Source of the DNA: an uncultured virus (IMG/VR IMGVR_UViG_3300009181_007169)
Taxonomy: Duplodnaviria > Heunggongvirae > Uroviricota > Caudoviricetes
Length of the DNA stretch: 64,000 bases
Direction: 5' to 3' (one strand)
Virus record (IMG/VR): IMGVR_UViG_3300009181_007169
The notes beneath the pieces are model-generated. The model worked only from the letters and a program-made list of their open reading frames with translations, ran no database searches and was not told where the DNA came from. Below are positions 1,996-63,773 of this stretch, in pieces (the stretch's first letter is position 1; the number at the start of each line of letters is the position of its first letter). Position numbers and translations under genes: made by a program.

Positions 1996-2271
1996 ATGAA
2001 TAATTCTGTGCGATTAAAGGAGAATGATGGCAAATATTCCATCATTAAAGACGGTGGCAAAAGAGCCTTGCGAGTTTTTAAAACTAAGCAAGAGGCGTTG
2101 GATTACATTCAGGAACACAATCTGAATATAGTTGAAGAAACTATGGATATTATTGTTTCCGTTCCTCCTATGCCTCAAGACAGCGAAACAAAACTGGTTG
2201 CTCCAAGACCATCGCTTTTTCAGCGACTTAAAAAAGCTTTATCAGAATTTATTTCTTCAGACAGAAATTAA
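1996..2271 (+). CDS. Small hypothetical protein, DUF2188-like N-terminus
   Basis: KYSIIKDGGKRALRVFKTKQEALDY pattern; has its own promoter motif. Confidence 0.5.
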   Translation: MNNSVRLKENDGKYSIIKDGGKRALRVFKTKQEALDYIQEHNLNIVEETMDIIVSVPPMPQDSETKLVAPRPSLFQRLKKALSEFISSDRN

Positions 2272-4631
2272 ATTATCTGATTAGTTGTACCATTTGAAAG
2301 ACCGCCAATTAGTTGTTGCATTGCTTGCTTAATAACCATTGCTACATCTTTTGGCTGTTTTTCAATTTCTTTATCTGTAAATCTCAACACTGTCCAACCT
2401 TGTCTGGATAAGTTTGTGTCCCTTGTTTTATCGGATTTTATTTTATTAGGGTTGTTGTGCCAAATTTCTCCGTCTGCTTCAACAGCTAATTTTATTTGAG
2501 GAAAAGCTCCGTCTAAAATATAATCTTTTCCAGGACCAGCTTCATATTGTGCATAGAAAGCTAATGGTGGCTGCATCCCCATAACAATCTTATATAATTT
2601 TTTCTCTAAAGAAGTGTAGCCATGAACGTTAACTTTATTTTTCACTTTAGCTTCTCTTACTAATTTCATTGCTTGAAAATTCTCAGGTATTCCTATTCCT
2701 TGACAATTCCAAGGCTTTACCATTTCTAAATTTTCTGGTATTTCTCCAACATAAGCCCTACCTGTTACAGCAAATTTTTCATTTAACTCTCTATCAATTT
2801 CACTGATGTAATTAGTTTCATCTAATTTTGACATTGCTGTTCTGTTAAAAGAAATTTCATTCATTAAATTAGATGCAAACTTGTATTGGCGATAAATAGT
2901 TTCAGCAGTGGCAGGAGCACCAGGTGCTGGCGCTGGTGATGCAGGAGCTTCTGGCACTGTACCCATGCCAAGATCACCACCAACTGGTTCTGCACCTGGC
3001 ATAGCACCCATCTCTCCTCCTTCAGCCCCTGGTGTTAAAGGTTGGTTAAGTGCACCTCCACCAAATCCTTGACCACTCACTCCGCCAAATCCTATGTTCA
3101 TGTCTGTGTCCATAACTTCAGGAGCATTAACAAAATTCATTCCTTGTTCAAATCTTAATCTTTCTACTTCTTGATCCCAATTTAATCCAAATTCTTCAAC
3201 TAAAGTTTCTGCAGAAATAGTACCATTTTGCTGTGCTGTAACAAGCATTTGAAGCGTACCAGTGTTATCTTTTAATCTTAAAGGATCAAAAATAATCTTT
3301 GGATAAATTATTTCTTCTTGACCCCCATCACCAGTAGCATAAAAACCATTCCACTCAGCGCATGGTTTAAATATTTTTTGTTCAATAAAATGTTGCATTT
3401 CTCTTCGCCAGCTTTCTAATCTTTCATTCATTGCCAACAAGCCAACCTGAGCACTACCATAGTTTGGACCTTCCCCGTTAAGCAATCCTTTATTCAACAT
3501 TAGACCGTCCAGGATTTCTCCATCTAATAAATCAAATTCCGAGGATACATTTAAAACTTGAGATCCAGCGCCAACAAATTCATATTTAAATGCATGAGGA
3601 ACTACTAAAGTTAAATTGGGGTCATTTGCCACTGCTGCAAGTTGTTCTTGCACAGAATCAAGGTCTGCCTGAGAAGCTGGTCGATTATCATCACCCACCA
3701 TTACAATTTTAGTAGGAATGATGTGTCTTTCAGCAATGAGCCATTGTGCCTGTCTTAATTTATCTTTATAAGCTAGAGTAACAAAAAGAGGTTTAACAAG
3801 TGATGTTCCATAATCTGCCCAATAATCAGAACCGTGTTTAAAATGGTGTATACATATTGGATCTAAAGGAATTGGTTGTTTTGATCTAATTTTAGCCTTA
3901 ATCCCATCTGGAATTTGCTCAAAAAGTTTTCTAGGATTTCCTTCCATTACAATTTTGATTTCTCTATCATTAGGCAAGTAAGCATAAAGAGGCTCAGTTG
4001 AAATAAAACCAGGAGTAATCATCACTGAATCTGGATTTAATAAAGTCATTGATTTCCAGCTTGCACCTTTATGTTCACATTTTTGACCTGTTTTTTGATC
4101 AAACATTGATCCAAAGCAATGAGGACAATCAATTTCAGTTAAAACAAATGCATCTCCATACAAATAGTAGTTACCTGAAATCAAAGGTAAGAATTTTTGG
4201 AAATTTAATTTTTCAATTAATTTCTCAAAATAATCTTTTACCACTCCAGATTTACATTCAAGTTTCCAGCCATTAAAAGGGAAGTTTGTGTAAAAATCTA
4301 TACCAGCTGCAACTTTTGGCTCATTATTACGCCACCAATTTGCCCAAAGATAGATTTCTTTTCTTGTGTTTGGAATTTGGAATGACGATGGAGTAAGAAA
4401 TGGGCTATAAAAGTTTGGCTGTGTAGTGGTGTTATTTAAACCTCCACCTGTTGACATTTGAGCATATCTGCCACCTGTAGCACCAAAACCTTTTGCTGTT
4501 CTTAATTCTGCCCAGTTTCTTCCAGATTGCCTATTGTTTCCATTTCTAGCTTCTGTTTTTCCTACTATTTTTCTTGTAGCTTCTGTGAGTACTGACGCCA
4601 ATGTTGGCATTGAATTGATATTGTTAGACAA
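2268..4631 (-). CDS. Portal protein with C-terminal DUF559/Vsr-like endonuclease domain
   Basis: Portal-like core (EPKVAAGIDFYTNFP, YGDAFV, YGTSLVKPLF, KDKLRQAQ), Gly/Pro linker, then LDGAFPQIKLAVEADGEIWH...DKTRDTNLSRQGWTVLRF; TTG start with GGAG SD. Confidence 0.8.
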   Translation of the reverse strand: MSNNINSMPTLASVLTEATRKIVGKTEARNGNNRQSGRNWAELRTAKGFGATGGRYAQMSTGGGLNNTTTQPNFYSPFLTPSSFQIPNTRKEIYLWANWWRNNEPKVAAGIDFYTNFPFNGWKLECKSGVVKDYFEKLIEKLNFQKFLPLISGNYYLYGDAFVLTEIDCPHCFGSMFDQKTGQKCEHKGASWKSMTLLNPDSVMITPGFISTEPLYAYLPNDREIKIVMEGNPRKLFEQIPDGIKAKIRSKQPIPLDPICIHHFKHGSDYWADYGTSLVKPLFVTLAYKDKLRQAQWLIAERHIIPTKIVMVGDDNRPASQADLDSVQEQLAAVANDPNLTLVVPHAFKYEFVGAGSQVLNVSSEFDLLDGEILDGLMLNKGLLNGEGPNYGSAQVGLLAMNERLESWRREMQHFIEQKIFKPCAEWNGFYATGDGGQEEIIYPKIIFDPLRLKDNTGTLQMLVTAQQNGTISAETLVEEFGLNWDQEVERLRFEQGMNFVNAPEVMDTDMNIGFGGVSGQGFGGGALNQPLTPGAEGGEMGAMPGAEPVGGDLGMGTVPEAPASPAPAPGAPATAETIYRQYKFASNLMNEISFNRTAMSKLDETNYISEIDRELNEKFAVTGRAYVGEIPENLEMVKPWNCQGIGIPENFQAMKLVREAKVKNKVNVHGYTSLEKKLYKIVMGMQPPLAFYAQYEAGPGKDYILDGAFPQIKLAVEADGEIWHNNPNKIKSDKTRDTNLSRQGWTVLRFTDKEIEKQPKDVAMVIKQAMQQLIGGLSNGTTNQII

Positions 4632-4688: not shown

Positions 4689-5001
4689 AGTTTGTATTCC
4701 AATCTGACATTCTTGTGTAATTATCATCTTGATTTAGTGGCAAATCTTTTTTAGATTCTAATAAATATGGAGCACCTTGACCTGTTGATTTTGTTCTAAC
4801 AGGTTGCCTTACTTCGTTCATCAATGAAGGGTTTTTAACAATATTTTCTCTTTCTGTTTCTAAAGCTGATTCTAAGTTTAAATTATCTTTTTTTACAGGC
4901 TTGGGAATATCGGGCGAATTTGTAAACAATGCTTTGTCCTTGTTTTGAATTTGCTCCGTGTACAAATCAATATAATCTTTGGCAAATCGATACCAGGACA
5001 T
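4687..5001 (-). CDS. Hypothetical, probable head-associated protein
   Basis: 104 aa, begins MSWYRFAK; head module. Confidence 0.6.
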   Translation of the reverse strand: MSWYRFAKDYIDLYTEQIQNKDKALFTNSPDIPKPVKKDNLNLESALETERENIVKNPSLMNEVRQPVRTKSTGQGAPYLLESKKDLPLNQDDNYTRMSDWNTN

Positions 5002-5003
5002 TT

Positions 5004-6068
5004 TTAGTCTCCTGTTGCCGCTCTAATTTGTTCTTCAAGAGTATCTAGATCATCTTCATCAAAAACATCTCTCATTTCAGAAAGAATTTTTTCAATAGCA
5101 GAATCTGAAGCAACAATGCTGTTTTTAAATTTTACATCTTCTCTTTTTTCAGTTTTTTGATGTTTTTCTTCTAATTGCTGTTCCCAAGGTTTTGAAGTTA
5201 CATTTTTTGTTAACTTTTCATCTCTTAAAATTCGCATGTCTTGTGAATCTTGATCTGACATAGGAAAATTAGTTCTAACACCTTTATCTAAATTCATGAA
5301 CTCAATTTCATCTTTATCATAATCCATTTTATCAAATAAATTTAAAGCTTGTTCTTGAGTTATTAAGTTTTCATTTAACCACTTTACATAATTACAGCCA
5401 ACCGTTCCATCTGGGTGCAAACGAGCATCAATGCAATAGTTTCTACAATTAGAGATTTCCATAGGAATTGGATAGCCACTTTGGTAAATTGCTTTAGGGC
5501 ACATTTGATATCCCTCACCTACTTGTTGTTTAATAGTCACGAACGCTGTTCTTACATTATCTGTTTGGTTTTTTGAAGCAAATATTGATCTAATATCTTC
5601 AGCAGCGTCATCAATTTTGCCTTGATTTATTTTAGTAACAACATTTGCTGTTGCAATTTTGTTTTTTTCACCATCAATATATTCGGATAAAAAATTTAAT
5701 AATTTTGCAGCTTTGAATTGTAAATCAATACTTGATTCTTTTTTAAATTCACTTACTGTATTTTCCAAAAGAACTGCCTCATTATTTGAGTTATTGATGT
5801 TTTGTATCAGATTGTGTGCTTTACGTAAGCCTTGATTAACAATTTCTTTTTTGATATTCGTTAATGCATTTACCGCTGAAGCAACTTTTACAGAATTAAA
5901 ATTTGAAGAAGAAAATCCATTAGGAAAAGATTTAAAAAACATATTAACAAGCAAATCATCATTTTCAAAATCATCTTTTTTTAATGATTGAGCTTCTTTT
6001 AGTACTGCATTATCTTTAATTGCAGACTTCATTAATACAATAACATCAGTTCCAGCTAATTTTTTCAT
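5004..6068 (-). CDS. Hypothetical head-module protein with Cys-rich segment
   Basis: 354 aa; MKKLAG start, MCPKA...CRNYCID...GCNY. Confidence 0.6.
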   Translation of the reverse strand: MKKLAGTDVIVLMKSAIKDNAVLKEAQSLKKDDFENDDLLVNMFFKSFPNGFSSSNFNSVKVASAVNALTNIKKEIVNQGLRKAHNLIQNINNSNNEAVLLENTVSEFKKESSIDLQFKAAKLLNFLSEYIDGEKNKIATANVVTKINQGKIDDAAEDIRSIFASKNQTDNVRTAFVTIKQQVGEGYQMCPKAIYQSGYPIPMEISNCRNYCIDARLHPDGTVGCNYVKWLNENLITQEQALNLFDKMDYDKDEIEFMNLDKGVRTNFPMSDQDSQDMRILRDEKLTKNVTSKPWEQQLEEKHQKTEKREDVKFKNSIVASDSAIEKILSEMRDVFDEDDLDTLEEQIRAATGD

Positions 6069-13212: not shown

Positions 13213-15315
13213 AAAAATTCGACCAGTGTAAGCAACCCTTGATCGCGGTAATGTTTGGACAACTGAAGATTGTGAATTGCTTTCATAAATAGCAGCAGCG
13301 ACAGCATCACAAAGATCATCTTTATATGATGTTAAAGCTTCAATGATTTGTCTTCCATTTCGCCACTTCTTTTGCAGAAAAGTAAACTGATCTTTGGCTT
13401 CAACAATCTCGTTTATATCAATTATATTTCCTTTAACATCTTTAACTTTTCCAGCAGACATTTTGTAAAATTCAATTCTTTTATCTCTAAAAGCTTCTAA
13501 TAAATGCAGATAAATTTTATCTTTGTATTCTTTATTGAAAACTTTCAACACAACAGGTAAACCTTGTGCAGACAGTTTAGATATAGTTTCAGGGCTACCC
13601 CATTGATCAAAAGATATCTGTTTGAATCTAAATTTATTATGCAATTCTAAAATATATTCTTCTACTTCTCTTATAGGAACTGGTTGTTTCATTTTTAGAG
13701 GAGCCCAGAATTGCATGTGATCAACAAAGAATTTTTTGATAGGTCTACCTTGTAAATCTAATTCGCCAGTTGATACAGCGTGAACTACTGCAATTGCATA
13801 ATAATCTGATCTGTTTGCAGGATCAACATGACAATAATAATCTATTAAGCCAGGTTCTCTTAACTCTGTTCTAGTAATCTTTGTTGAATTTTCAAAAGCA
13901 TAAGCAACATCTTCTGGACTTAAGTATGGATCTTGAGAATTAGATCCAAATTCAGCTCCGTATTGCATATTGTACTCAACTGGATCTCTTCTTTTTTCAC
14001 CTTCAAGCCAAAGTTTGTCCACATTTGCATTAATTTGCCATGTTGGAAGTTTCAAAATAAGAGTCATGCTGTCTTCAAGTCTTGAATTATAAAGTGTGTA
14101 AAGTTGTCCAAATGGACCTTTAGGGTTTGATAGGCAAATAATTTTTCCATCTTTTCCAAATGTTGTTAACGATGGTTTTAAATCATTATATAATTTTTTA
14201 TCAACACCTGAATTTGGATTATCACCTGCCATAGCAGCGAGCTCATCTAAAATAATGCACCAACAAGTTTTACCAACCAATCCTGAAGCTGATGAAGAAC
14301 CACATTTTAAAATGATTGTTCCATCCAAAGGTGTTAGTCCTCTTTCTTGTCTTCTGATATTTTCTTCAATATCTCTTTCTGTTAAAAATTTCATTTCCAA
14401 AGCATTATCCACACCAATATATTTTTGAAAAAATGGAGAGGCTACAGCGCTATTTTTCATGGGTGTAAAGATTGAGTCTTTTGCTTGGTCTTCATTTTTA
14501 GCCACATTGAGTATGAAAATTTCACCAAAATCAGGCAATCTTAATTTTTTTTGTGGATGCTTCATTGACAATAGTCTGTACAGCTCGTAAAGGGCAATTG
14601 CTACAGTCATAAATGATTTACTGCCTCGACGACCAATTATTAGAACTAATTCTTGAAACTTATTGCGTAATTTCTTTTTGATTTGCATTTTTACAGCTTC
14701 ATCAGGAATTTCATCAATTAAATCCATTTCTGACTGAAAAAAATCTTCTGTGTCTTCTTCATAAATGTCTCTCAACATTTGCTCACCGTCTTTATCATTT
14801 GCGGCTTTTATTTCATGCTCTAATCTTATTTTTCTTGTTTGTAATGGGCATCTTGAGCATTTTAAACATCTTGAGTTTATTGGGGAAAGAATAGATAAAT
14901 AATTTTCTTCTTGTTCGATTGCTTTTGCACAATTATTTTCATTTTCAACTACATACTCCCAAACACAATTCTTACATCCAGCTACATCTTCTTTCTTTGT
15001 TTCATTAAATTCAACATTTGTATTACCTTCTGAACCAGCATAAAACAATTTTAATGCCAAAATTTGCCAAGGATAAGGCTTTAAATTTAAAAAGTAAGGA
15101 TGTATAATGAAAGTTTCTATATCAACAAGATTATTTTTATTGTATTTTGTTTGGTCTTTAGGCTCTGGTGGTGGAACTTCATACCTGTTTGAATATTCAA
15201 TTTCATCTATTGGCTCGCCAAAAACATTTGCAAAAAACTGTTCGAGCTTTGCAGCATCTCGAATCATTTGCTCTCTTTGCTCAATTTTTTGTTTGTTTTT
15301 ATTTTTGTTATTCAT
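13207..15315 (-). CDS. terL: Terminase large subunit
   Basis: LIIGRRGSKS (Walker A), CIILDELA (Walker B), LSNP, YGAEF, CHVDPA and KDDLCDA nuclease motifs. Confidence 0.9.
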   Translation of the reverse strand: MNNKNKNKQKIEQREQMIRDAAKLEQFFANVFGEPIDEIEYSNRYEVPPPEPKDQTKYNKNNLVDIETFIIHPYFLNLKPYPWQILALKLFYAGSEGNTNVEFNETKKEDVAGCKNCVWEYVVENENNCAKAIEQEENYLSILSPINSRCLKCSRCPLQTRKIRLEHEIKAANDKDGEQMLRDIYEEDTEDFFQSEMDLIDEIPDEAVKMQIKKKLRNKFQELVLIIGRRGSKSFMTVAIALYELYRLLSMKHPQKKLRLPDFGEIFILNVAKNEDQAKDSIFTPMKNSAVASPFFQKYIGVDNALEMKFLTERDIEENIRRQERGLTPLDGTIILKCGSSSASGLVGKTCWCIILDELAAMAGDNPNSGVDKKLYNDLKPSLTTFGKDGKIICLSNPKGPFGQLYTLYNSRLEDSMTLILKLPTWQINANVDKLWLEGEKRRDPVEYNMQYGAEFGSNSQDPYLSPEDVAYAFENSTKITRTELREPGLIDYYCHVDPANRSDYYAIAVVHAVSTGELDLQGRPIKKFFVDHMQFWAPLKMKQPVPIREVEEYILELHNKFRFKQISFDQWGSPETISKLSAQGLPVVLKVFNKEYKDKIYLHLLEAFRDKRIEFYKMSAGKVKDVKGNIIDINEIVEAKDQFTFLQKKWRNGRQIIEALTSYKDDLCDAVAAAIYESNSQSSVVQTLPRSRVAYTGRIFR

Positions 15316-56337: not shown

Positions 56338-56925
56338 GTGGTTAAACTTGACATTCCAAAAGAGCTTCCTAAAAATAAACTTGAAAAAGCAGGTGTTTCA
56401 AAAAAAACTAATGAGGAGCATCTAAAGCTCTGGCAAGGCTATGCCAAAAACAATAACAAAGCTGTAGAGGCTTTAAACCAAAGAAAAAATCTTAAAAACG
56501 TTAATTCCACTTTTTCAGAGGTGAGAAATCAAAAAATGGGATTATCTTTTGCATATGGCGGATTTCTTAACCACAAAGTGTTTTTCAATCATCTTAATGG
56601 AGATGGTGAGCCCACTAAAGAGTTTCTTGCATTAATAAAAGCAGATTATGATAGTTTTTCTAATTATATTAATGATTTAAAAGCCACCGCACTTGCCTCA
56701 AGAGGCTGGTCATTTATTGGATACTGCTATGACCACGAGATGATAATTAATGTAATTGGAGATACACAAAATACATTTCCTATGTGGAATTGTGAGCTTA
56801 TTGGAGCCATAGACATGTACGAGCATGCTTACTTTCCAGATTTTGGCACTGACCGAGAAGGCTACATTGATGCAATCCTAGAAATTATGGATTGGAACCA
56901 AGTGGTGAAAAATATCAGGAATTAA
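56338..56925 (+). CDS. Fe/Mn superoxide dismutase
   Basis: EEHLKLWQGY, NHKVFF, RGW, DMYEHAY.DFG. Confidence 0.9.
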   Translation: MVKLDIPKELPKNKLEKAGVSKKTNEEHLKLWQGYAKNNNKAVEALNQRKNLKNVNSTFSEVRNQKMGLSFAYGGFLNHKVFFNHLNGDGEPTKEFLALIKADYDSFSNYINDLKATALASRGWSFIGYCYDHEMIINVIGDTQNTFPMWNCELIGAIDMYEHAYFPDFGTDREGYIDAILEIMDWNQVVKNIRN

Positions 56926-56927
56926 AC

Positions 56928-57575
56928 ATGAAAAATCTTCTTATTAAAATTGCCTCAATTGCTACAGAGCTTGATAATAATGGGCTTGAAAAAGAAGCTA
57001 AACAAATGCATAGGATATTTTTAAAAATTGCAGAAAGCCCTTTAAGAATTCATAGATTCCAAGTTGAACTTAAAGATGCTCAAGAAGGATTAATACAAGC
57101 AGAAAATGCATATTTTAGAGAAATGGAAAAAATGCAAAATCAAGAGTATTATGACGAATTTTTATCTTCACCTCAACCCTTTGAGTTTTCAAGAAAAATA
57201 GTATGGGCTGGAACATTATTGGCTAGAAAAGATCAAGCTGAAGAAAGATTAAATAACGCGTTAGAGGGTTTGAAAAATGAAGGGGTAGAGCAAATATTCA
57301 AACCAAAACATGCTAAACGACCAAAAGTATCTCCTGAAAAAGCAGAATTGTTTGAATACCTTGCAAGAAATTTTTTAGAAGAAAATAAACGCGATGAAGA
57401 TTATAAATCAAAAATTAAAATGGAAAGTGATCAAGAACTTGAAAATAAAAACCTAGCTTTAAGACAAAGACAGCAAGAAGAACAGAGAAAAATAGATGAA
57501 AAAGAGAAGCAAATTCAAGAACAAAGAGATTTTCATGCAAATTTCTATGCTAACAGTGACGAGCCAGTGATGTGA
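56928..57575 (+). CDS. Hypothetical charged helical protein with shared leader
   Basis: Likely start ATG 56928: MKNLLIKIASIATELDNNGLEKEAKQMHRIFLKIAE. Confidence 0.65.
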   Translation: MKNLLIKIASIATELDNNGLEKEAKQMHRIFLKIAESPLRIHRFQVELKDAQEGLIQAENAYFREMEKMQNQEYYDEFLSSPQPFEFSRKIVWAGTLLARKDQAEERLNNALEGLKNEGVEQIFKPKHAKRPKVSPEKAELFEYLARNFLEENKRDEDYKSKIKMESDQELENKNLALRQRQQEEQRKIDEKEKQIQEQRDFHANFYANSDEPVM

Positions 57576-58577: not shown

Positions 58578-61235
58578 GTGTATAAATTCAGTTCCATTTC
58601 AAAATATTTTGACAATTTTAATTTAGTGTTGAATAATATTCACCAACTTATTACAAATGACAATTTCTTGAATGTAATTCAAGCAGAAAGTTTTTTAAGA
58701 GATTATTTATTAAGTGAAAATAATCAGAATAAAAGTAATTATGAATCAAAATTATTGTTATGGACAGATGTTCACTCAGAAATTAATTCATTATTTAATG
58801 ATTGTGTTTTAGAATCTAAAGCGCTAAATTTACAGATACCTGTGCAAATTGATTATAATCCTAATAAAAAAGTGGGTGGCTCAGCAAAAGTAGATGGAAC
58901 TATAAGTATTAATGGTGCTTCACTTAAAAATCAATCAATATCATCACTTAAATCAAATTTAGCTCATGAAATTACACATGTTCTCAGTAAGATACAAAGC
59001 AAAAAAAGTGACTGGTGGCGCAATGAAGCTCTCTTAGATGCAACAGACATAAAACATCAAAGTCAATTGCCCCCAGAAATGACACAATTCGGAAGATATT
59101 ATTACCAAAGCCCAGAAGAAGCAAGGGCGAATTTACAGGCTTTGATAGAACAATATCATTTATCTTTAACAAAAGAAAAAATTAAAGAAAAAGCATTAGA
59201 AGATGGTATTTCTTATGATGAAGAAGTGAAAAAAATAATATTTAAGATTATTAAAGAATTTACAGAAAGACATGTTAAAAACAAATCTTCGGAAGAACAT
59301 CCTTTTGGACCAGAGTATTTAAATATTATAAGAAAAGGGCTTTATGATTATATTCATCAACAAAAAGGCTTAAAACCAATAGAAAATATCCCAGCACCTC
59401 TTCAATTAATTATTCAAAACGCTTACAGTGATTTCAATAATGAAAAATATAGAATGGGGCATATTAAAGCTTATGAAAATCTTTTAATGAAATTAAAAGA
59501 AATATCAGGTAAAACTTCAGGAGCTACTTTAAGAAGTAACCAAAAATTTCTTCAACCTTATGTTGAAGATGTTGAAAAGAGATTAGAAATGTTAAGACAA
59601 AAAATGAAATCTACTGAAAATAATAATACTTTTTCTTCATCATTCAATTTTAAAAAGTATAGTGAGTCTAAAAAAAAACTTGAAATTTACTTACCAGATT
59701 ATGTGGATGATATCTTAAAAGATATTACACAATCTGGTGGTAAAGCTTTAATAGTTGGTGGTGCTGTTAGAGATGCTATTTTAGGTAAATCTCCAAAAGA
59801 TATTGATTTTGAAGTTTATAGATTGTCTTATGATCAATTAAATAATATTTTATCAAAATATGGCAAAGCAGACCTTGTAGGTCAAATGTTTGGTGTAATT
59901 AAATTTGTAGGTAAAGATGGATCTGATTTTGATTTCTCTCTTCCAAGAAAAGATTCTAAATCAGGTGTTGGACATAAAGATTTTAGCGTGGAAATAAGTG
60001 GCGATCTCACACCTATAGAAGCCGCAGCAAGAAGAGACTTTACCATTAATGCTATTTCTTATGACCCAATTACCCATGAAATTGTAGACCCATTTAATGG
60101 AAGAGCTGATCTTGAAAATAAAATTTTAAGGCATACATCTAATGCCTTTTCTGAAGATCCGCTCAGAGTGTTGAGAGGAATGCAATTTGCTTCTAGATTT
60201 GGATTTGAAATAGCACCAGAAACTGCAAAATTAGCAGAATCCATTAGAGATGAATTTAAACATCTTCCTAAAGAAAGAATTTATGAAGAGTTCAAAAAAC
60301 TTGTAACTAAAGGCATTGAACCTGGTAAAGCTTTAGATTTTCTTTACTCTACTGGGTGGTCTAAAAACTTCCCTGAAATACACGATCTAAAAGACACACC
60401 TCAAGACCCTGAGTGGCATCCTGAAGGCGATGTTTCTACTCATACCGCTTATGTTATGAACGAAGCAGCTAGAATTGCTGATAGAGAAAATTTAAGCCCT
60501 GAGGATAGAGAAGTGCTTATTTACGCAGCATTGGCGCATGACTTTGCTAAACCTGAAACTACAGCAGTGATTAATAAAAAAGGTAAAGACAGAATTACCT
60601 CTCATGGACATGAAGAATTGGGTGGACCTAAAGCTGAATCTTTCTTAAAATCAATTGGTGCACCAAATGATGTTATTAAAAAAGTAATTCCCTTGGTGCA
60701 ATTTCATTTAAGCCATATTCATCACTCAAATACATCAAAACAAGAATCTTTTGTTAAAAACTTGGCTGAAAAGATTTACCCCTCTAATATTAAAATGTTA
60801 GAACTTTTAATAGAAGCTGATCATTCAGGCAGACCACCTCTTCCTAAACATCTTCCAGAACAAGCAAGAGAAATGTCTGAATTAGCTAAAAAATTTAATG
60901 TTTATGAAGGTAAACATCCTGACCTACTTCAAGGCAGAGACATTATGCCCTATCTGAATAATAAAGGTGGACCAATAATCGGGCAAATTTTAAAAGAACA
61001 TAGAAATTTAATTCTTAATCATGATCCTAGAATGACTGATAGAGAATCCGCGCTAAAATGGCTTTCCAATAGAATGCAAAGAGAAGCAGCATTCATAAAT
61101 GGACATGATGTTCTAAATTACACAAACTATACAGGATCTAAAATAAAAGAAATTTTAGATCAAGCATGGGAAGCTCAATTGAGAAAAGAATTAAATTCTA
61201 GAGAAGAAGCAATTGATTGGCTTAAACAACAATAA
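58578..61235 (+). CDS. cca: Fusion: HExxH zincin-like domain + tRNA nucleotidyltransferase (CCA-adding) with HD domain
   Basis: LAHEITH; VGGAVRD, KDIDFE, RRDFTINA, EDPLRVLR, ERI, WHPEG, LAHDFAK, HGHE. Confidence 0.9.
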   Translation: MYKFSSISKYFDNFNLVLNNIHQLITNDNFLNVIQAESFLRDYLLSENNQNKSNYESKLLLWTDVHSEINSLFNDCVLESKALNLQIPVQIDYNPNKKVGGSAKVDGTISINGASLKNQSISSLKSNLAHEITHVLSKIQSKKSDWWRNEALLDATDIKHQSQLPPEMTQFGRYYYQSPEEARANLQALIEQYHLSLTKEKIKEKALEDGISYDEEVKKIIFKIIKEFTERHVKNKSSEEHPFGPEYLNIIRKGLYDYIHQQKGLKPIENIPAPLQLIIQNAYSDFNNEKYRMGHIKAYENLLMKLKEISGKTSGATLRSNQKFLQPYVEDVEKRLEMLRQKMKSTENNNTFSSSFNFKKYSESKKKLEIYLPDYVDDILKDITQSGGKALIVGGAVRDAILGKSPKDIDFEVYRLSYDQLNNILSKYGKADLVGQMFGVIKFVGKDGSDFDFSLPRKDSKSGVGHKDFSVEISGDLTPIEAAARRDFTINAISYDPITHEIVDPFNGRADLENKILRHTSNAFSEDPLRVLRGMQFASRFGFEIAPETAKLAESIRDEFKHLPKERIYEEFKKLVTKGIEPGKALDFLYSTGWSKNFPEIHDLKDTPQDPEWHPEGDVSTHTAYVMNEAARIADRENLSPEDREVLIYAALAHDFAKPETTAVINKKGKDRITSHGHEELGGPKAESFLKSIGAPNDVIKKVIPLVQFHLSHIHHSNTSKQESFVKNLAEKIYPSNIKMLELLIEADHSGRPPLPKHLPEQAREMSELAKKFNVYEGKHPDLLQGRDIMPYLNNKGGPIIGQILKEHRNLILNHDPRMTDRESALKWLSNRMQREAAFINGHDVLNYTNYTGSKIKEILDQAWEAQLRKELNSREEAIDWLKQQ

Positions 61236-62519: not shown

Positions 62520-62975
62520 CTACTGCCAATCCGACAGCCCCATAAGTCTCAACTGTTTTTTCATCTTGTTTGATATATTTGGATTCATGTCAAGAGCATA
62601 CCAATCTACATAATCTTCAAATTCATTAATAAATTTGTCAGAAAGTGGTTGTTTTCGTGAAATTTGTTCCCAATCCAGCCTGTCTGCGAATTCACGAATA
62701 AAATCCTCAGAAAGTATTGGTTTAGATGAAATATAATTCCAACCTTTCTGGTCTATACTGTCTGCATTTTCTCTAATATACTCTTCAGATAATTTTTTGT
62801 AGTAATCAAGATTTTTCCACTTACCAGGTAATTTTTCTCTATCACTCATTCCATTTTCTTCTTCAGCTAATTTCAAAAGGATGGAATCCATCGCTTTTGC
62901 TTCTTTAGTAAGTCCTGCATAGTCAAGCTCTGTGGCAACAGAAGCAATCTTTCTCATCAGATTGTGTTTGTTCAT
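62520..62975 (-). CDS. Trp-repeat protein (LSEDFIREF..LDW) with shared leader
   Basis: MRKIASVATELDYAGLTKEAKAMDSILLKLAE then three LSE/DxFI...W repeats. Confidence 0.7.
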   Translation of the reverse strand: MNKHNLMRKIASVATELDYAGLTKEAKAMDSILLKLAEEENGMSDREKLPGKWKNLDYYKKLSEEYIRENADSIDQKGWNYISSKPILSEDFIREFADRLDWEQISRKQPLSDKFINEFEDYVDWYALDMNPNISNKMKKQLRLMGLSDWQ

Positions 62976-62984
62976 AATTTAATT

Positions 62985-63009
62985 TTAAAAATTAGATAAA
63001 ATTATCCCT
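62985..63009 (-). promoter_or_regulatory. SigH-like promoter AGG-N18-TTAA, 9 nt before ATG
   Basis: AGG gataattttatctaattt TTAA aattaaatt ATG. Confidence 0.55.
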
Positions 63010-63532
63010 TTTTTTTATAAAAAAAATTTAAGCAAACAACAAATTGAGAATTTATAACGCACATTCCAAATTCTTGTTCGTTTTTCCTGGTGGCTAAAAC
63101 TCCCAAAAATTGTGGCGGGGGAAGGAAAAAAGCTTTGTTTTCAGGGCAAAGTTCTGATTCGTGCACATCAAGATTAGGTATTTCTGTGGTGCGAGATGGA
63201 TGAACCACCACCTGAGCGCACAGAAGATTATTTTCTTCAAAAAATGAATCCACGTCTAACCAAGCAAAATGGTTGTCTAAACTTTCTGCACTTACATTTC
63301 TAATTGTGTCAGATTCATCTACACTTTCAATCAGTATTTTAATTAATGCATCATCCCAATTAACATCGTCAGTGGTCATCGGAATAAGTATATCTTCGTA
63401 GCCATTTTTTTTAACAATGTTATTTTCTCTTGAATGAAAAACAAGAGGCATAGCATCAGACACTTCATATCTAGCCGAGCCCCCAACTGGCACTTCGTCA
63501 AACCATAATACTTTGCGAGCTAAATCATACAT
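63002..63532 (-). CDS. Shortened major-capsid-like protein
   Basis: LARKVLWFDEVPVGGSARYE...VVVHP...FFLPPPQFLGV...FGMCVIN recalls HK97-fold capsids of this phage type; likely start MYDLARK. Confidence 0.45.
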   Translation of the reverse strand: MYDLARKVLWFDEVPVGGSARYEVSDAMPLVFHSRENNIVKKNGYEDILIPMTTDDVNWDDALIKILIESVDESDTIRNVSAESLDNHFAWLDVDSFFEENNLLCAQVVVHPSRTTEIPNLDVHESELCPENKAFFLPPPQFLGVLATRKNEQEFGMCVINSQFVVCLNFFYKKKG

Positions 63533-63562
63533 AATTAATTTATACAATTAGTTTTTAAAAAA

Positions 63563-63639
63563 TGGTACTCCGAACGGGATTTGAACCCGTGATCTTCGCC
63601 GTGAAAGAGCGATGTCCTGAACCGCTAGACGACCGGAGC
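63563..63639 (-). tRNA. tRNA-Glu (TTC), CCA encoded
   Basis: GCTCCGG...TCGCT-CTTTCAC-GGCGA...ACGGG-TTCAAAT-CCCGT-TCGGAGT-A-CCA. Confidence 0.95.
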
Positions 63640-63640
63640 A

Positions 63641-63739
63641 TGGGAGCGGGGGTGGGATTTGAACCCACGACCTCCGAGTTATTAAAAGCCCCTTAAGGCA
63701 CTTAATGAGCCCGACAAGCTACCACTGCTCTACCCCGCA
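63641..63739 (-). tRNA. Initiator-type tRNA-Met (CAT) with a 24-nt insertion in the anticodon loop
   Basis: TGCGGGG-TA-GAGC-AGTGGTA-GCTT-G-TCGGG-CTCAT-[24 nt]-AA-CTCGG-AGGTC-GTGGG-TTCAAAT-CCCAC-CCCCGCT-C-CCA; 1:72 mismatch and A11-U24 are initiator features. Confidence 0.85.
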
Positions 63740-63744
63740 ATAAT

Positions 63745-63773
63745 ATTATACGATTTTTTTAAGATTTTGTTCA
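63745..63773 (-). promoter_or_regulatory. Class-II promoter TGAAC-N16-CGTATAAT driving the tRNA pair
   Basis: G of CGTATAAT is 12 nt before the tRNA 5' end. Confidence 0.6.

What the first reader, a model, noticed from the sequence alone, without database searches (positions are those of the whole stretch)
63641..63739. Initiator tRNA-Met interrupted by a 24-nt hairpin inside the anticodon loop
Seen: removing 63681-63704 (TAAGTGCCTTAAGGGGCTTTTAAT on minus) gives a clean 75-nt initiator-like tRNA with loop CTCATAA. The insert is flanked by a repeated AT, so the junction could be 34/35, 35/36 or 36/37, not the canonical 37/38. It folds as ATTAAG-T-GCCT/TAAG/GGGC-T-TTTAAT, pairing and hiding the AU of the anticodon. 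It is far too short for a group I intron and I see no bulge-helix-bulge. The rest of the cloverleaf, CCA and promoter are intact, though G30-U40 and C73 deviate from typical tRNA-fMet. Inference: a protein-spliced mini-intron, a masked tRNA activated by cleavage and religation, or a decoy against anticodon nucleases (enteric VapC toxins cut tRNA-fMet in this arm).
Basis: partly seen in the sequence, partly recalled or inferred. Interest (0 to 1): 0.8.

Follow-up and report, generated by a model that had tools for sequence, protein, structure and literature searches.

The report
Mini-introns in phage initiator tRNA genes
A large freshwater phage carries an initiator tRNA gene split inside its anticodon by a 24-base hairpin; similar short, unrelated inserts recur at the same spot in other mostly phage-like sequences and fit no known splicing mechanism, so they point to an unexplained way of processing tRNA, or to tRNA look-alikes.

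Summary
A phage tRNA-fMet gene (63641-63739, minus) holds a 24-nt insert whose removal restores the loop CUCAUAA. The insert is identical in a 2013 run of another study and in five metagenome contigs; a variant occurs in five more; the closest complete relative has none. Scans found nine unrelated insert families (21-39 nt) in initiator tRNA genes. All fit a 34/35 junction, and four inserts fit only that one (the main pattern favoured 34/35). Exons keep compensatory pairs, the 1x72 mismatch and the promoter, so the RNA looks selected. The insert is not a group I intron, has no bulge-helix-bulge and is not at 37/38. No splicing enzyme was found and no RNA data exist. Best reading (0.5): a short, protein-excised intron. 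Rivals: an unspliced tRNA mimic, or an insert spread by homing endonucleases. 'Enigmatic' tRNA introns were reported in Lak phages (longer, unexplained), and this scan noted similar inserts on other DNA. The recurrent initiator 34/35 class was not found in my paper searches.

The parts
63707..63739 (-). 5' exon of tRNA-fMet (positions 1-34; U1xU72 mismatch, A11-U24, ends C32-U33-C34) under the 34/35 junction
63683..63706 (-). 24-nt insert under the 34/35 junction (ATTAAGTGCCTTAAGGGGCTTTTA); the same event can be written 63681-63704 (36/37) because of the AT repeat
63693..63705 (-). 5-bp hairpin (+2..+6 with +10..+14) of the two-allele consensus fold
63690..63692 (-). GGG (+15..+17; GAG in the variant allele), predicted partner of C32-U33-C34 in the consensus fold
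63641..63682 (-). 3' exon of tRNA-fMet (A35 to CCA; G30-U40 wobble, C73)
63745..63773 (-). sigma70-like promoter (TGAACA-17-TATAAT) ending 5 nt before the tRNA; CGTATAAT is kept in 11 of 11 loci of this insert family
63563..63639 (-). uninterrupted tRNA-Glu(UUC), one base downstream, probably co-transcribed (inference)
58578..61235 (+). tRNA nucleotidyltransferase (CCA-adding type) with HD domain; context, no shown role in the insert

Best explanation
The gene makes a pre-tRNA-fMet with a short intron between C34 and A35. Shown: the insert is real, conserved, sits in a gene whose exons and promoter look selected, and belongs to a recurrent class. Inferred: it is transcribed with tRNA-Glu, folds so that C32-U33-C34 extend the anticodon stem by pairing with a G-(A/G)-N triplet of the insert while A35-U36-A37-A38 stay single-stranded, is cut after C34 and before A35 by an unidentified phage or host endonuclease, and is sealed by an RNA ligase to give a working initiator tRNA. 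Inferred origin and spread: a DNA-level insertion in the anticodon (the AT repeat may be a 2-nt target duplication), carried between phages by recombination, probably helped by homing endonucleases that target tRNA genes.
For: Nine unrelated insert families of 21-39 nt all restore CUCAUAA at 34/35; in L002, L022, L031 and L033 no other junction does. No initiator insert that fits only 36/37 was among the 14 matches of the converse scan. Among insert-bearing alleles the exon changes are compensatory at 7-66, 29-41, 50-64 and the tertiary 15-48 pair, none disruptive; 14 of 15 alleles keep an unpaired 1x72, which the search patterns did not require (the 15th, L033, parsed with an irregular acceptor stem). 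The insert is unchanged (0 of 24) in L030/L040/L042 and L036, whose upstream 46 nt differ at 30-31 places by unaligned count. All 9 families fold better than their shuffle mean (Fisher combined p about 5e-5 using the worst member of each); families B and C each show one double-sided change inside the insert helix. G at -3 plus a purine at -2 ends 6 of 9 families (post hoc binomial 1.6e-4), and the window family has an equivalent triplet at +15 with 13 of 13 consensus pairs kept in both alleles. Inserts found without an anticodon pattern also restore the anticodon that fits the tRNA body (my reading): Tyr and Asp in L022, Gly and probably Gln in G003, Thr in G006, the only Thr gene in the tRNA clusters fetched.
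Against: No RNA evidence of any kind. No splicing enzyme found: RtcB 0 of 3 records searched; Rnl1, Rnl2 and AAA_33 kinase only in the unrelated G006, 1 of 5 each; EndA and RNase III 0 of 5. A review states that eubacteria have no protein-spliced tRNA introns (PMC4090602, passages). The main pattern required C34 and AUAA, so the 34/35 rule and the kept anticodon are partly built in. Any recent insertion restores the loop on paper. The consensus fold rests on two alleles and is 7.1 kcal/mol worse than the single-sequence fold in the window allele and 2.0 worse in the variant; the variant tail leaves 7 extra nt before A35, unlike most families. Junctions in the non-Met cases are 35/36 or 36/37, so no single rule covers all. 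13 of 81 enlarged-loop tRNA bodies parsed give no canonical loop at any junction, so unspliced look-alikes exist. G30-U40 and U29-A41 weaken the three G-C pairs.
Confidence: 0.5

Rival explanations
1. The RNA is made but never spliced. It is a tRNA-fMet look-alike with an intact elbow and acceptor arm that acts as a decoy or competitor for host anticodon nucleases or other tRNA-binding defence proteins.
For: Explains selection on the L-shape without a new enzyme. Enlarged-loop tRNA bodies that cannot give a canonical loop occur in IMG/VR (13 of 81 rows). L002 has a second fMet-type gene beside the insert-bearing one, and G006 and G007 hold uninterrupted genes for the isoacceptors of their short-insert tRNAs. 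Host nucleases do target tRNA-fMet (PMC10264068, passages). The single-sequence fold buries A35-U36.
Against: Gives no reason to keep C34 on one side and AUAA on the other across diverged alleles, nor for the insert-bearing Thr being the only Thr gene in the G006 clusters fetched. In this clade the gene occupies the slot of the fMet-type gene seen uninterrupted in the complete relative G001.
Confidence: 0.22
2. The insert is a passenger of DNA homing: it destroys the target of a homing endonuclease in the tRNA gene and spreads by gene conversion; the phage tRNA is dispensable and is simply inactivated.
For: An HNH or other endonuclease gene lies within about 1 kb of 10 of 20 insert loci against 2 of 14 uninterrupted fMet-type loci (Fisher p 0.035 one-sided, 0.066 two-sided; 8 of 17 against 2 of 14 after collapsing, p 0.058). 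Presence is patchy: window +, its closest relative G001 -, G002 +, G003 -. G001 has none of these endonuclease families. T4 SegB homes through tRNA clusters and leaves 2-nt overhangs (PMC2330249, abstract). An unchecked scan note puts an HNH gene inside a tRNA-Thr gene 7.7 kb beyond this window.
Against: No endonuclease gene was recognised beside the window allele, L029, L030 or L036. The control set is small and holds smaller phages. Inactivation does not predict compensatory exon changes, a kept promoter, hairpins in 9 of 9 families or double-sided changes inside inserts. Homing can explain spread together with splicing.
Confidence: 0.13
3. A conditionally masked tRNA: it stays inactive until a host anticodon nuclease of the anti-phage response cuts it, after which a repair ligase joins the exons.
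For: Junction lies in the anticodon, where such nucleases cut (PMC10264068, passages; cut sites at 34/35 for colicin E5 are recalled, from no call). G006 encodes Rnl1, Rnl2 and a kinase.
Against: Needs two precise cuts by an enzyme that normally makes one, on a loop that no longer looks like its substrate. No ligase found in G001-G004.
Confidence: 0.07
4. The insert is the P1 hairpin left from a group I intron and is removed in trans by a group I ribozyme core.
For: The consensus fold pairs the 5' exon with an internal G-A-G-like triplet as P1 does. The closest relative G001 carries a 211-nt group I-like intron at 34/35 of tRNA-Leu(UAA), whose guide is also GAG.
Against: The cut would follow a C-G pair, not U-G; the last insert base is G in only 3 of 13 distinct inserts listed; no conserved P10 (my inspection). 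No group I match in G002, G003, G004 or G006. Defining features of group I splice sites are recalled.
Confidence: 0.05
5. Assembly artefact.
For: 6 of 25 metagenome matches and 13 of 20 GTDB matches to similar patterns are tandem-duplication or N-gap artefacts.
Against: This insert is not a copy of tRNA sequence, is identical in independent assemblies and studies and has a diverged variant.
Confidence: 0.01

Closest known systems
'Enigmatic' tRNA introns of Lak megaphages (Devoto et al. 2019, PMC6784885; passages and Table S6 read)
   Same: Insert in the anticodon loop of a large-phage tRNA gene, off the canonical site, no Rfam match, identical across distant samples, present in some relatives and absent in others, mechanism unknown. 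Table S6 also lists one predicted 23-nt intron in a class II tRNA of another huge phage.
   Different: Lak introns are 79-141 nt, lie in Tyr, Phe, Thr and Gly genes, the Thr one is offset one base from the predicted 37/38 site, and it nests a tRNA-like fold. This one is 24 nt, a plain hairpin, in the initiator tRNA, most likely at 34/35. Lak-B1 tRNA-fMet has no insert.
Group I introns of bacterial tRNA genes, notably tRNA-Leu(UAA) at 34/35 (review PMC4090602, passages; position seen here in G001)
   Same: Anticodon position 34/35 and a P1-like pairing of exon bases 32-34 with an internal triplet.
   Different: No catalytic core, no U-G at the cut, no terminal G; cannot self-splice.
Archaeal BHB introns and eukaryotic or giant-virus 37/38 tRNA introns (PMC4090602, passages)
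   Same: Short (12-25 nt median in archaea), structured, protein-spliced by inference.
   Different: No 4-bp helix between two 3-nt bulges at any junction; 37/38 would leave U37; no EndA gene found; the carrier is a tailed phage.
Phage tRNAs altered against host anticodon nucleases (PMC10264068, passages) and T4 SegB homing in tRNA clusters (PMC2330249, abstract)
   Same: Change at the anticodon arm of a frequent nuclease target; endonuclease genes beside tRNA genes.
   Different: Those are point changes or homing of intact genes; the word intron does not occur in the main text of PMC10264068.

Membership tests
Group I intron | Catalytic core of about 200 nt or more (Rfam RF00028) | tested here: not met
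   24 nt; no RF00028 match in the region or window
Group I intron | U-G pair at the 5' splice site and G as last intron base (recalled features) | tested here: not met
   C34-G in the consensus fold; last base A (34/35) or U (36/37)
Group I intron | P1 helix between 5' exon and internal guide | tested here: inconclusive
   Present in the two-allele consensus, not in the single-sequence minimum
Archaeal BHB intron | 4-bp helix flanked by two 3-nt bulges at the splice sites | tested here: not met
   Best 3 of 4 pairs, without outer helix, for this allele; 0 of 14 initiator-insert rows reach 4 of 4 at any junction, against 16 of 27 Tyr(GUA) rows at 37/38 as positive control
Archaeal BHB intron | EndA splicing endonuclease available | tested here: inconclusive
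   PF01974 in 0 of 5 phage records, three partial; own genome and host not held
Eukaryotic or giant-virus canonical tRNA intron | Position 37/38 leaving a purine 37 | tested here: not met
   Removal at 37/38 leaves U37
Lak-type enigmatic phage tRNA intron | Conserved, patchily distributed insert at a non-canonical anticodon-loop site of a large-phage tRNA | tested here: met
Lak-type enigmatic phage tRNA intron | 79-141 nt, with a nested tRNA-like fold in the Thr case | tested here: not met
   24-nt hairpin
Any tRNA intron | Excision and exon ligation in RNA | not testable with these tools
   No RNA holder listed
Bacterial initiator tRNA | CAU anticodon, unpaired 1x72, purine 11-pyrimidine 24 (recalled features) | tested here: met
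   After removal of the insert: CAU, U1xU72, A11-U24
Bacterial initiator tRNA | Three consecutive G-C pairs 29-41, 30-40, 31-39 and A73 (recalled features) | tested here: not met
   G30-U40 and C73; insert-free relatives also have only two G-C pairs and C73

The most novel reading that the evidence does not exclude
Large phages use a so far undescribed tRNA-splicing route in bacterial cells: short hairpin introns at 34/35 of the initiator tRNA, marked by pairing of C32-U33-C34 with the intron and a single-stranded AUAA, cut and ligated by enzymes that are neither EndA nor a group I ribozyme in cis, possibly keeping the initiator tRNA masked until it is needed.
Probability: 0.4. Interest if true: 0.87.

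Novelty: new variant of a known kind. Interest (0 to 1): 0.66.

Why it matters
Bacteria are held to have only self-splicing tRNA introns. Phage tRNA 'introns' were reported in 2019 with no mechanism. This class gives the smallest substrates (99 nt), matched alleles with and without the insert, nine independent designs at one site and a concrete structural rule, so the question can be tested with one in vitro transcript and a cell extract or a targeted look at freshwater metatranscriptomes. Either answer is useful: a new RNA cut-and-join activity, or a family of initiator-tRNA mimics in the phage-host conflict over tRNA. Standard annotation misses these genes (ARAGORN without intron search reported only tRNA-Glu) and with intron search misnames some as Ile, Thr, Pro or Pyl.

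Tried and rejected
Own genome: not held, so genes outside the window could not be searched. RNA evidence: no RNA holder listed; this is no evidence either way. First narrow viral pattern: 0 matches. Cultured or deposited phages: no record covers 80% of the gene with its insert, none of the 57 records matched by a second insert-bearing gene shows a longer span, terminase relatives are below 30% identity in the rows shown. Clade scan with the terminase alignment: 5 close loci of 18, only two new and both short, not followed. Enzyme searches negative as listed; Pfam scans of 150 ORFs from G003/G004 (of 172 listed) and 150 from G001 (chosen from 208 listed outside the window-syntenic part) showed no RNA ligase or tRNA endonuclease, only an RlaP nucleotidyltransferase, a PIN-PhoH protein and a ribonuclease domain in G001. 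L019 and L038 were not held for whole-record search. No second copy or antisense copy of the insert elsewhere in the window (12-mer search). The ORF downstream (63002-63547) has no Pfam or PHROG family and only a weak JAB-like Atlas lead, score 0.82; it also follows the insert-free gene in G003, so it was dropped as splicing candidate. An RNase III-like geometry (2-nt 3' overhang at 36/37, recalled) fits the single-sequence fold but not the four 34/35-only inserts, so it was demoted. One search (self-alignment) gave nothing; the second half failed on an offset and was redone. Papers PMC7162821, PMC12619734 and 10.1101/2021.08.26.457843 (passages) say nothing on tRNA introns in the main text.

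Full report
What the window is. The window is part of a large tailed-phage genome: terminase, portal, head protease, DNA polymerase III alpha, primase, helicase, ribonucleotide reductase, two sigma-type factors, ribosomal protein S21 and a CCA-type nucleotidyltransferase. The stretch is held by freshwater and lake metagenome runs. Its closest relative found is the 347-kb, 99% complete record G001 (most core proteins 60-90% identical); G002 and G003 are more distant and partial. The host is unknown.

The observation. The gene at 63641-63739 (minus) is a tRNA-fMet body with a 31-nt anticodon loop. Removing 24 nt at 34/35, 35/36 or 36/37 gives CUCAUAA; 37/38 leaves U37 and 33/34 gives AAU. A promoter-like site ends 5 nt upstream and tRNA-Glu follows after one base. 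Contigs of run X2 (possible source) and of X6 (2013, another study) span the insert with no difference, while an X6 contig differs at 28 of 542 letters over the neighbouring ORF; none of the 4 runs shows a joint skipping the insert. These are contigs, so rare variants would be lost.

Relatives. G001 and G003 have the same tRNA-Met, tRNA-Glu pair without insert. G002 has a variant insert, 5 of 24 letters different. The metagenome scan returned 25 loci: 5 with the window's insert, 4 with the variant, 10 with other inserts and 6 that are duplication or N-gap artefacts, which I dropped. With L002, L004 and L116 from IMG/VR this makes nine families by my grouping, 21-39 nt long, with no sequence likeness between families. 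Only L002, L004 and L116 are classed as viral by their source; the others look phage-like from tRNA clusters and gene content, L038 least clearly. In one genome each of 185,579 prokaryote species the pattern gave 20 matches: 13 artefacts, 4 chance hits and 3 contigs (two labelled Patescibacteria) with a perfect 20-nt palindrome at 35/36, two of them in broken genes. So the class is essentially absent from cellular genomes.

Where the junction is. All nine families fit 34/35; L002, L022, L031 and L033 fit nothing else. The pattern demanded C34 and AUAA, so this is biased. Two less biased scans of IMG/VR help: the position-free pattern gave 1 match, L002, which is 34/35-only; the converse pattern (CAU on the 5' side) gave 14 matches, of which 2 were the known inserts L004 and L116, 1 a canonical giant-virus intron and 11 chance or tandem hits, with no 36/37-only case. 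Five families begin with AT, repeating A35-U36; where the two copies differ it is the 5' copy that has changed. I infer a 2-nt duplication at insertion and use of the 3' copy in the mature anticodon. Inserts in other tRNAs follow other sites: Tyr and Asp in L022 (34/35 or 35/36), probable Gln (35/36) and Gly (36/37) in G003, Asn (34/35 or 35/36, 43 nt) and Thr (36/37, 93 nt) in G006.

Selection on the RNA. Among five insert-bearing alleles the exon pairs 7-66, 29-41, 50-64 and the tertiary pair 15-48 show double-sided changes and no exon pair is broken (the alleles are related, so this is about four events). L036 has the identical insert but A1xA72 instead of U1xU72, still unpaired. CGTATAAT is kept upstream in 11 of 11 loci of the family while the rest of the spacer differs. 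Exons differ at 11 of 72 and the insert at 5 of 24 between the two alleles, so the insert changes about as slowly as the exons. Caveat: some exon changes may predate the insert if it moved by recombination.

Structure. The window insert alone is an unremarkable hairpin (z -0.9 to -1.1), but all nine families beat their shuffle mean (combined p about 5e-5 to 5e-6). RNAalifold of the two alleles gives another fold: C32-U33-C34 pair with +15..+17, +1 is bulged, +2..+14 form a 5-bp hairpin, and all 13 pairs are kept, two through one-sided changes. The same pairing of U33 and C34 with a G-purine step is the minimum or within 0.7 kcal/mol in families C to H, and clearly suboptimal in B and I. Family B supports the other fold by one double-sided change. 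The shared fold is therefore a good lead, not settled; the window RNA may switch between both.

What it is not. Not a group I intron (no core, no U-G, no terminal G), not BHB (0 of 14 initiator rows reach 4 of 4 pairs, against 16 of 27 Tyr(GUA) control rows), not 37/38. G001 carries a 211-nt group I-like intron at 34/35 of tRNA-Leu(UAA) (38.3 bits, under the Rfam cut-off of 50), which makes a P1-remnant origin thinkable but does not supply a mechanism.

Enzymes. RtcB 0 of 3 records; Rnl1, Rnl2 and AAA_33 kinase 1 of 5 each, only in the unrelated G006; EndA and RNase III 0 of 5. The only complete clade member lacks the insert and the insert-bearing ones are 17-46% complete, so these blanks weigh little. 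A host enzyme is not excluded.

Homing. Endonuclease genes lie within about 1 kb of 10 of 20 insert loci and 2 of 14 control loci (p 0.035-0.07), and between the two insert-bearing tRNAs of G003, but none was recognised beside the window allele. This may explain the patchy spread; it does not explain the RNA-level constraints.

Literature. Devoto 2019 (PMC6784885: passages, Table S6; preprint 10.1101/356790: passages) reports phage tRNA introns as new and enigmatic, 79-141 nt in Lak phages plus a few predicted in another huge phage, one of 23 nt; 'splic', 'RtcB' and 'ligase' do not occur in its main text. PMC4090602 (passages) gives the BHB definition and says eubacteria lack protein-spliced tRNA introns. 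PMC10264068 (passages) and PMC2330249 (abstract) frame the nuclease and homing rivals. Nine full-text searches (listings only, apart from the papers named) showed no paper on short 34/35 inserts in phage initiator tRNAs. The library lacks most subscription papers; I did not read the supplements of PMC7162821, and the word search of the Devoto supplements hit only one of three files held, so a mention elsewhere is possible. Earlier unchecked notes of this scan describe similar inserts in other phage tRNAs, some read as introns and some as mimics.

Verdict. A real, conserved feature and a member of a recurrent, apparently undescribed short class within a known but unexplained kind. Protein-excised intron at 34/35: 0.5; unspliced mimic 0.22; homing passenger in a dead gene 0.13; host-nuclease activation 0.07; trans-ribozyme 0.05; artefact 0.01. 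Novelty: new variant of a known kind. Interest 0.66.

Noticed in passing
L389 1475-1772 (G001 about 13665-13962, +): Phage tRNA-Leu(UAA) gene with a 211-nt group I-like intron at 34/35 (RF00028 38.3 bits, under cut-off; ends in G; P1 with U-G), missed by ARAGORN runs limited to short introns.
   Followed up: partly
L323 about 4980-5080 region match, L324, L329: tRNA-fMet genes on three MAG contigs (two labelled Patescibacteria) carry a perfect 20-nt palindrome at 35/36; two of the genes have broken 3' ends. Looks like a mobile repeat, a different thing from the phage inserts.
   Followed up: partly
L179 (G003 100601-100698 and 101822-101913, minus): Two more short anticodon-loop inserts in the same phage clade (probable Gln, 24 nt; Gly, 17 nt) with an HNH gene between them.
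   Followed up: partly
L361 (G006 400744-400913 and 403389-403506, minus): 93-nt insert in the only Thr gene of the clusters fetched and 43-nt insert in an Asn gene; this 453-kb phage encodes Rnl1, Rnl2 and an AAA_33 kinase and has two CUA-anticodon tRNAs.
   Followed up: partly
L025 548-656; L002 2840-2920 and 2366-2448; L025 1438-1523; L038 10543-10627; L022 6127-6211: tRNA genes with hairpins inserted in the D-loop or with long variable arms in normally short-arm types (Met, Glu, Asn, Arg, Cys).
   Followed up: no
L218, L239, L241, L253, L259, L267, L272, L286, L287, L291, L301, L314, L318: tRNA bodies with enlarged anticodon loops that give no canonical loop at any junction: probable tRNA mimics or parser errors.
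   Followed up: no
window 58578-61235: CCA-type nucleotidyltransferase with a 370-aa N-terminal extension of no known family holding an HEITH motif; relatives G002 and L019 match only the C-terminal 518 aa.
   Followed up: no
window 2268-4631: Portal protein with a C-terminal DUF559/REase-like endonuclease domain.
   Followed up: no
window 62520-62975, 56892-57575 and neighbours in L029-L042: A repeated N-terminal motif (K-IASVATELD-x-GL-x-KEAK-x-M) starts several small ORFs around the tRNA pair in this clade.
   Followed up: no
window 63002-63547: 181-aa ORF of no known family with a weak JAB-like Atlas lead (0.82).
   Followed up: partly
L023 1263-1688; G001 321534-321917: Phage-type contigs encoding tmRNA; in L023 it lies directly upstream of the insert-bearing tRNA-fMet and near a HAD_SAK_2 RNA-repair-type phosphatase.
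   Followed up: no
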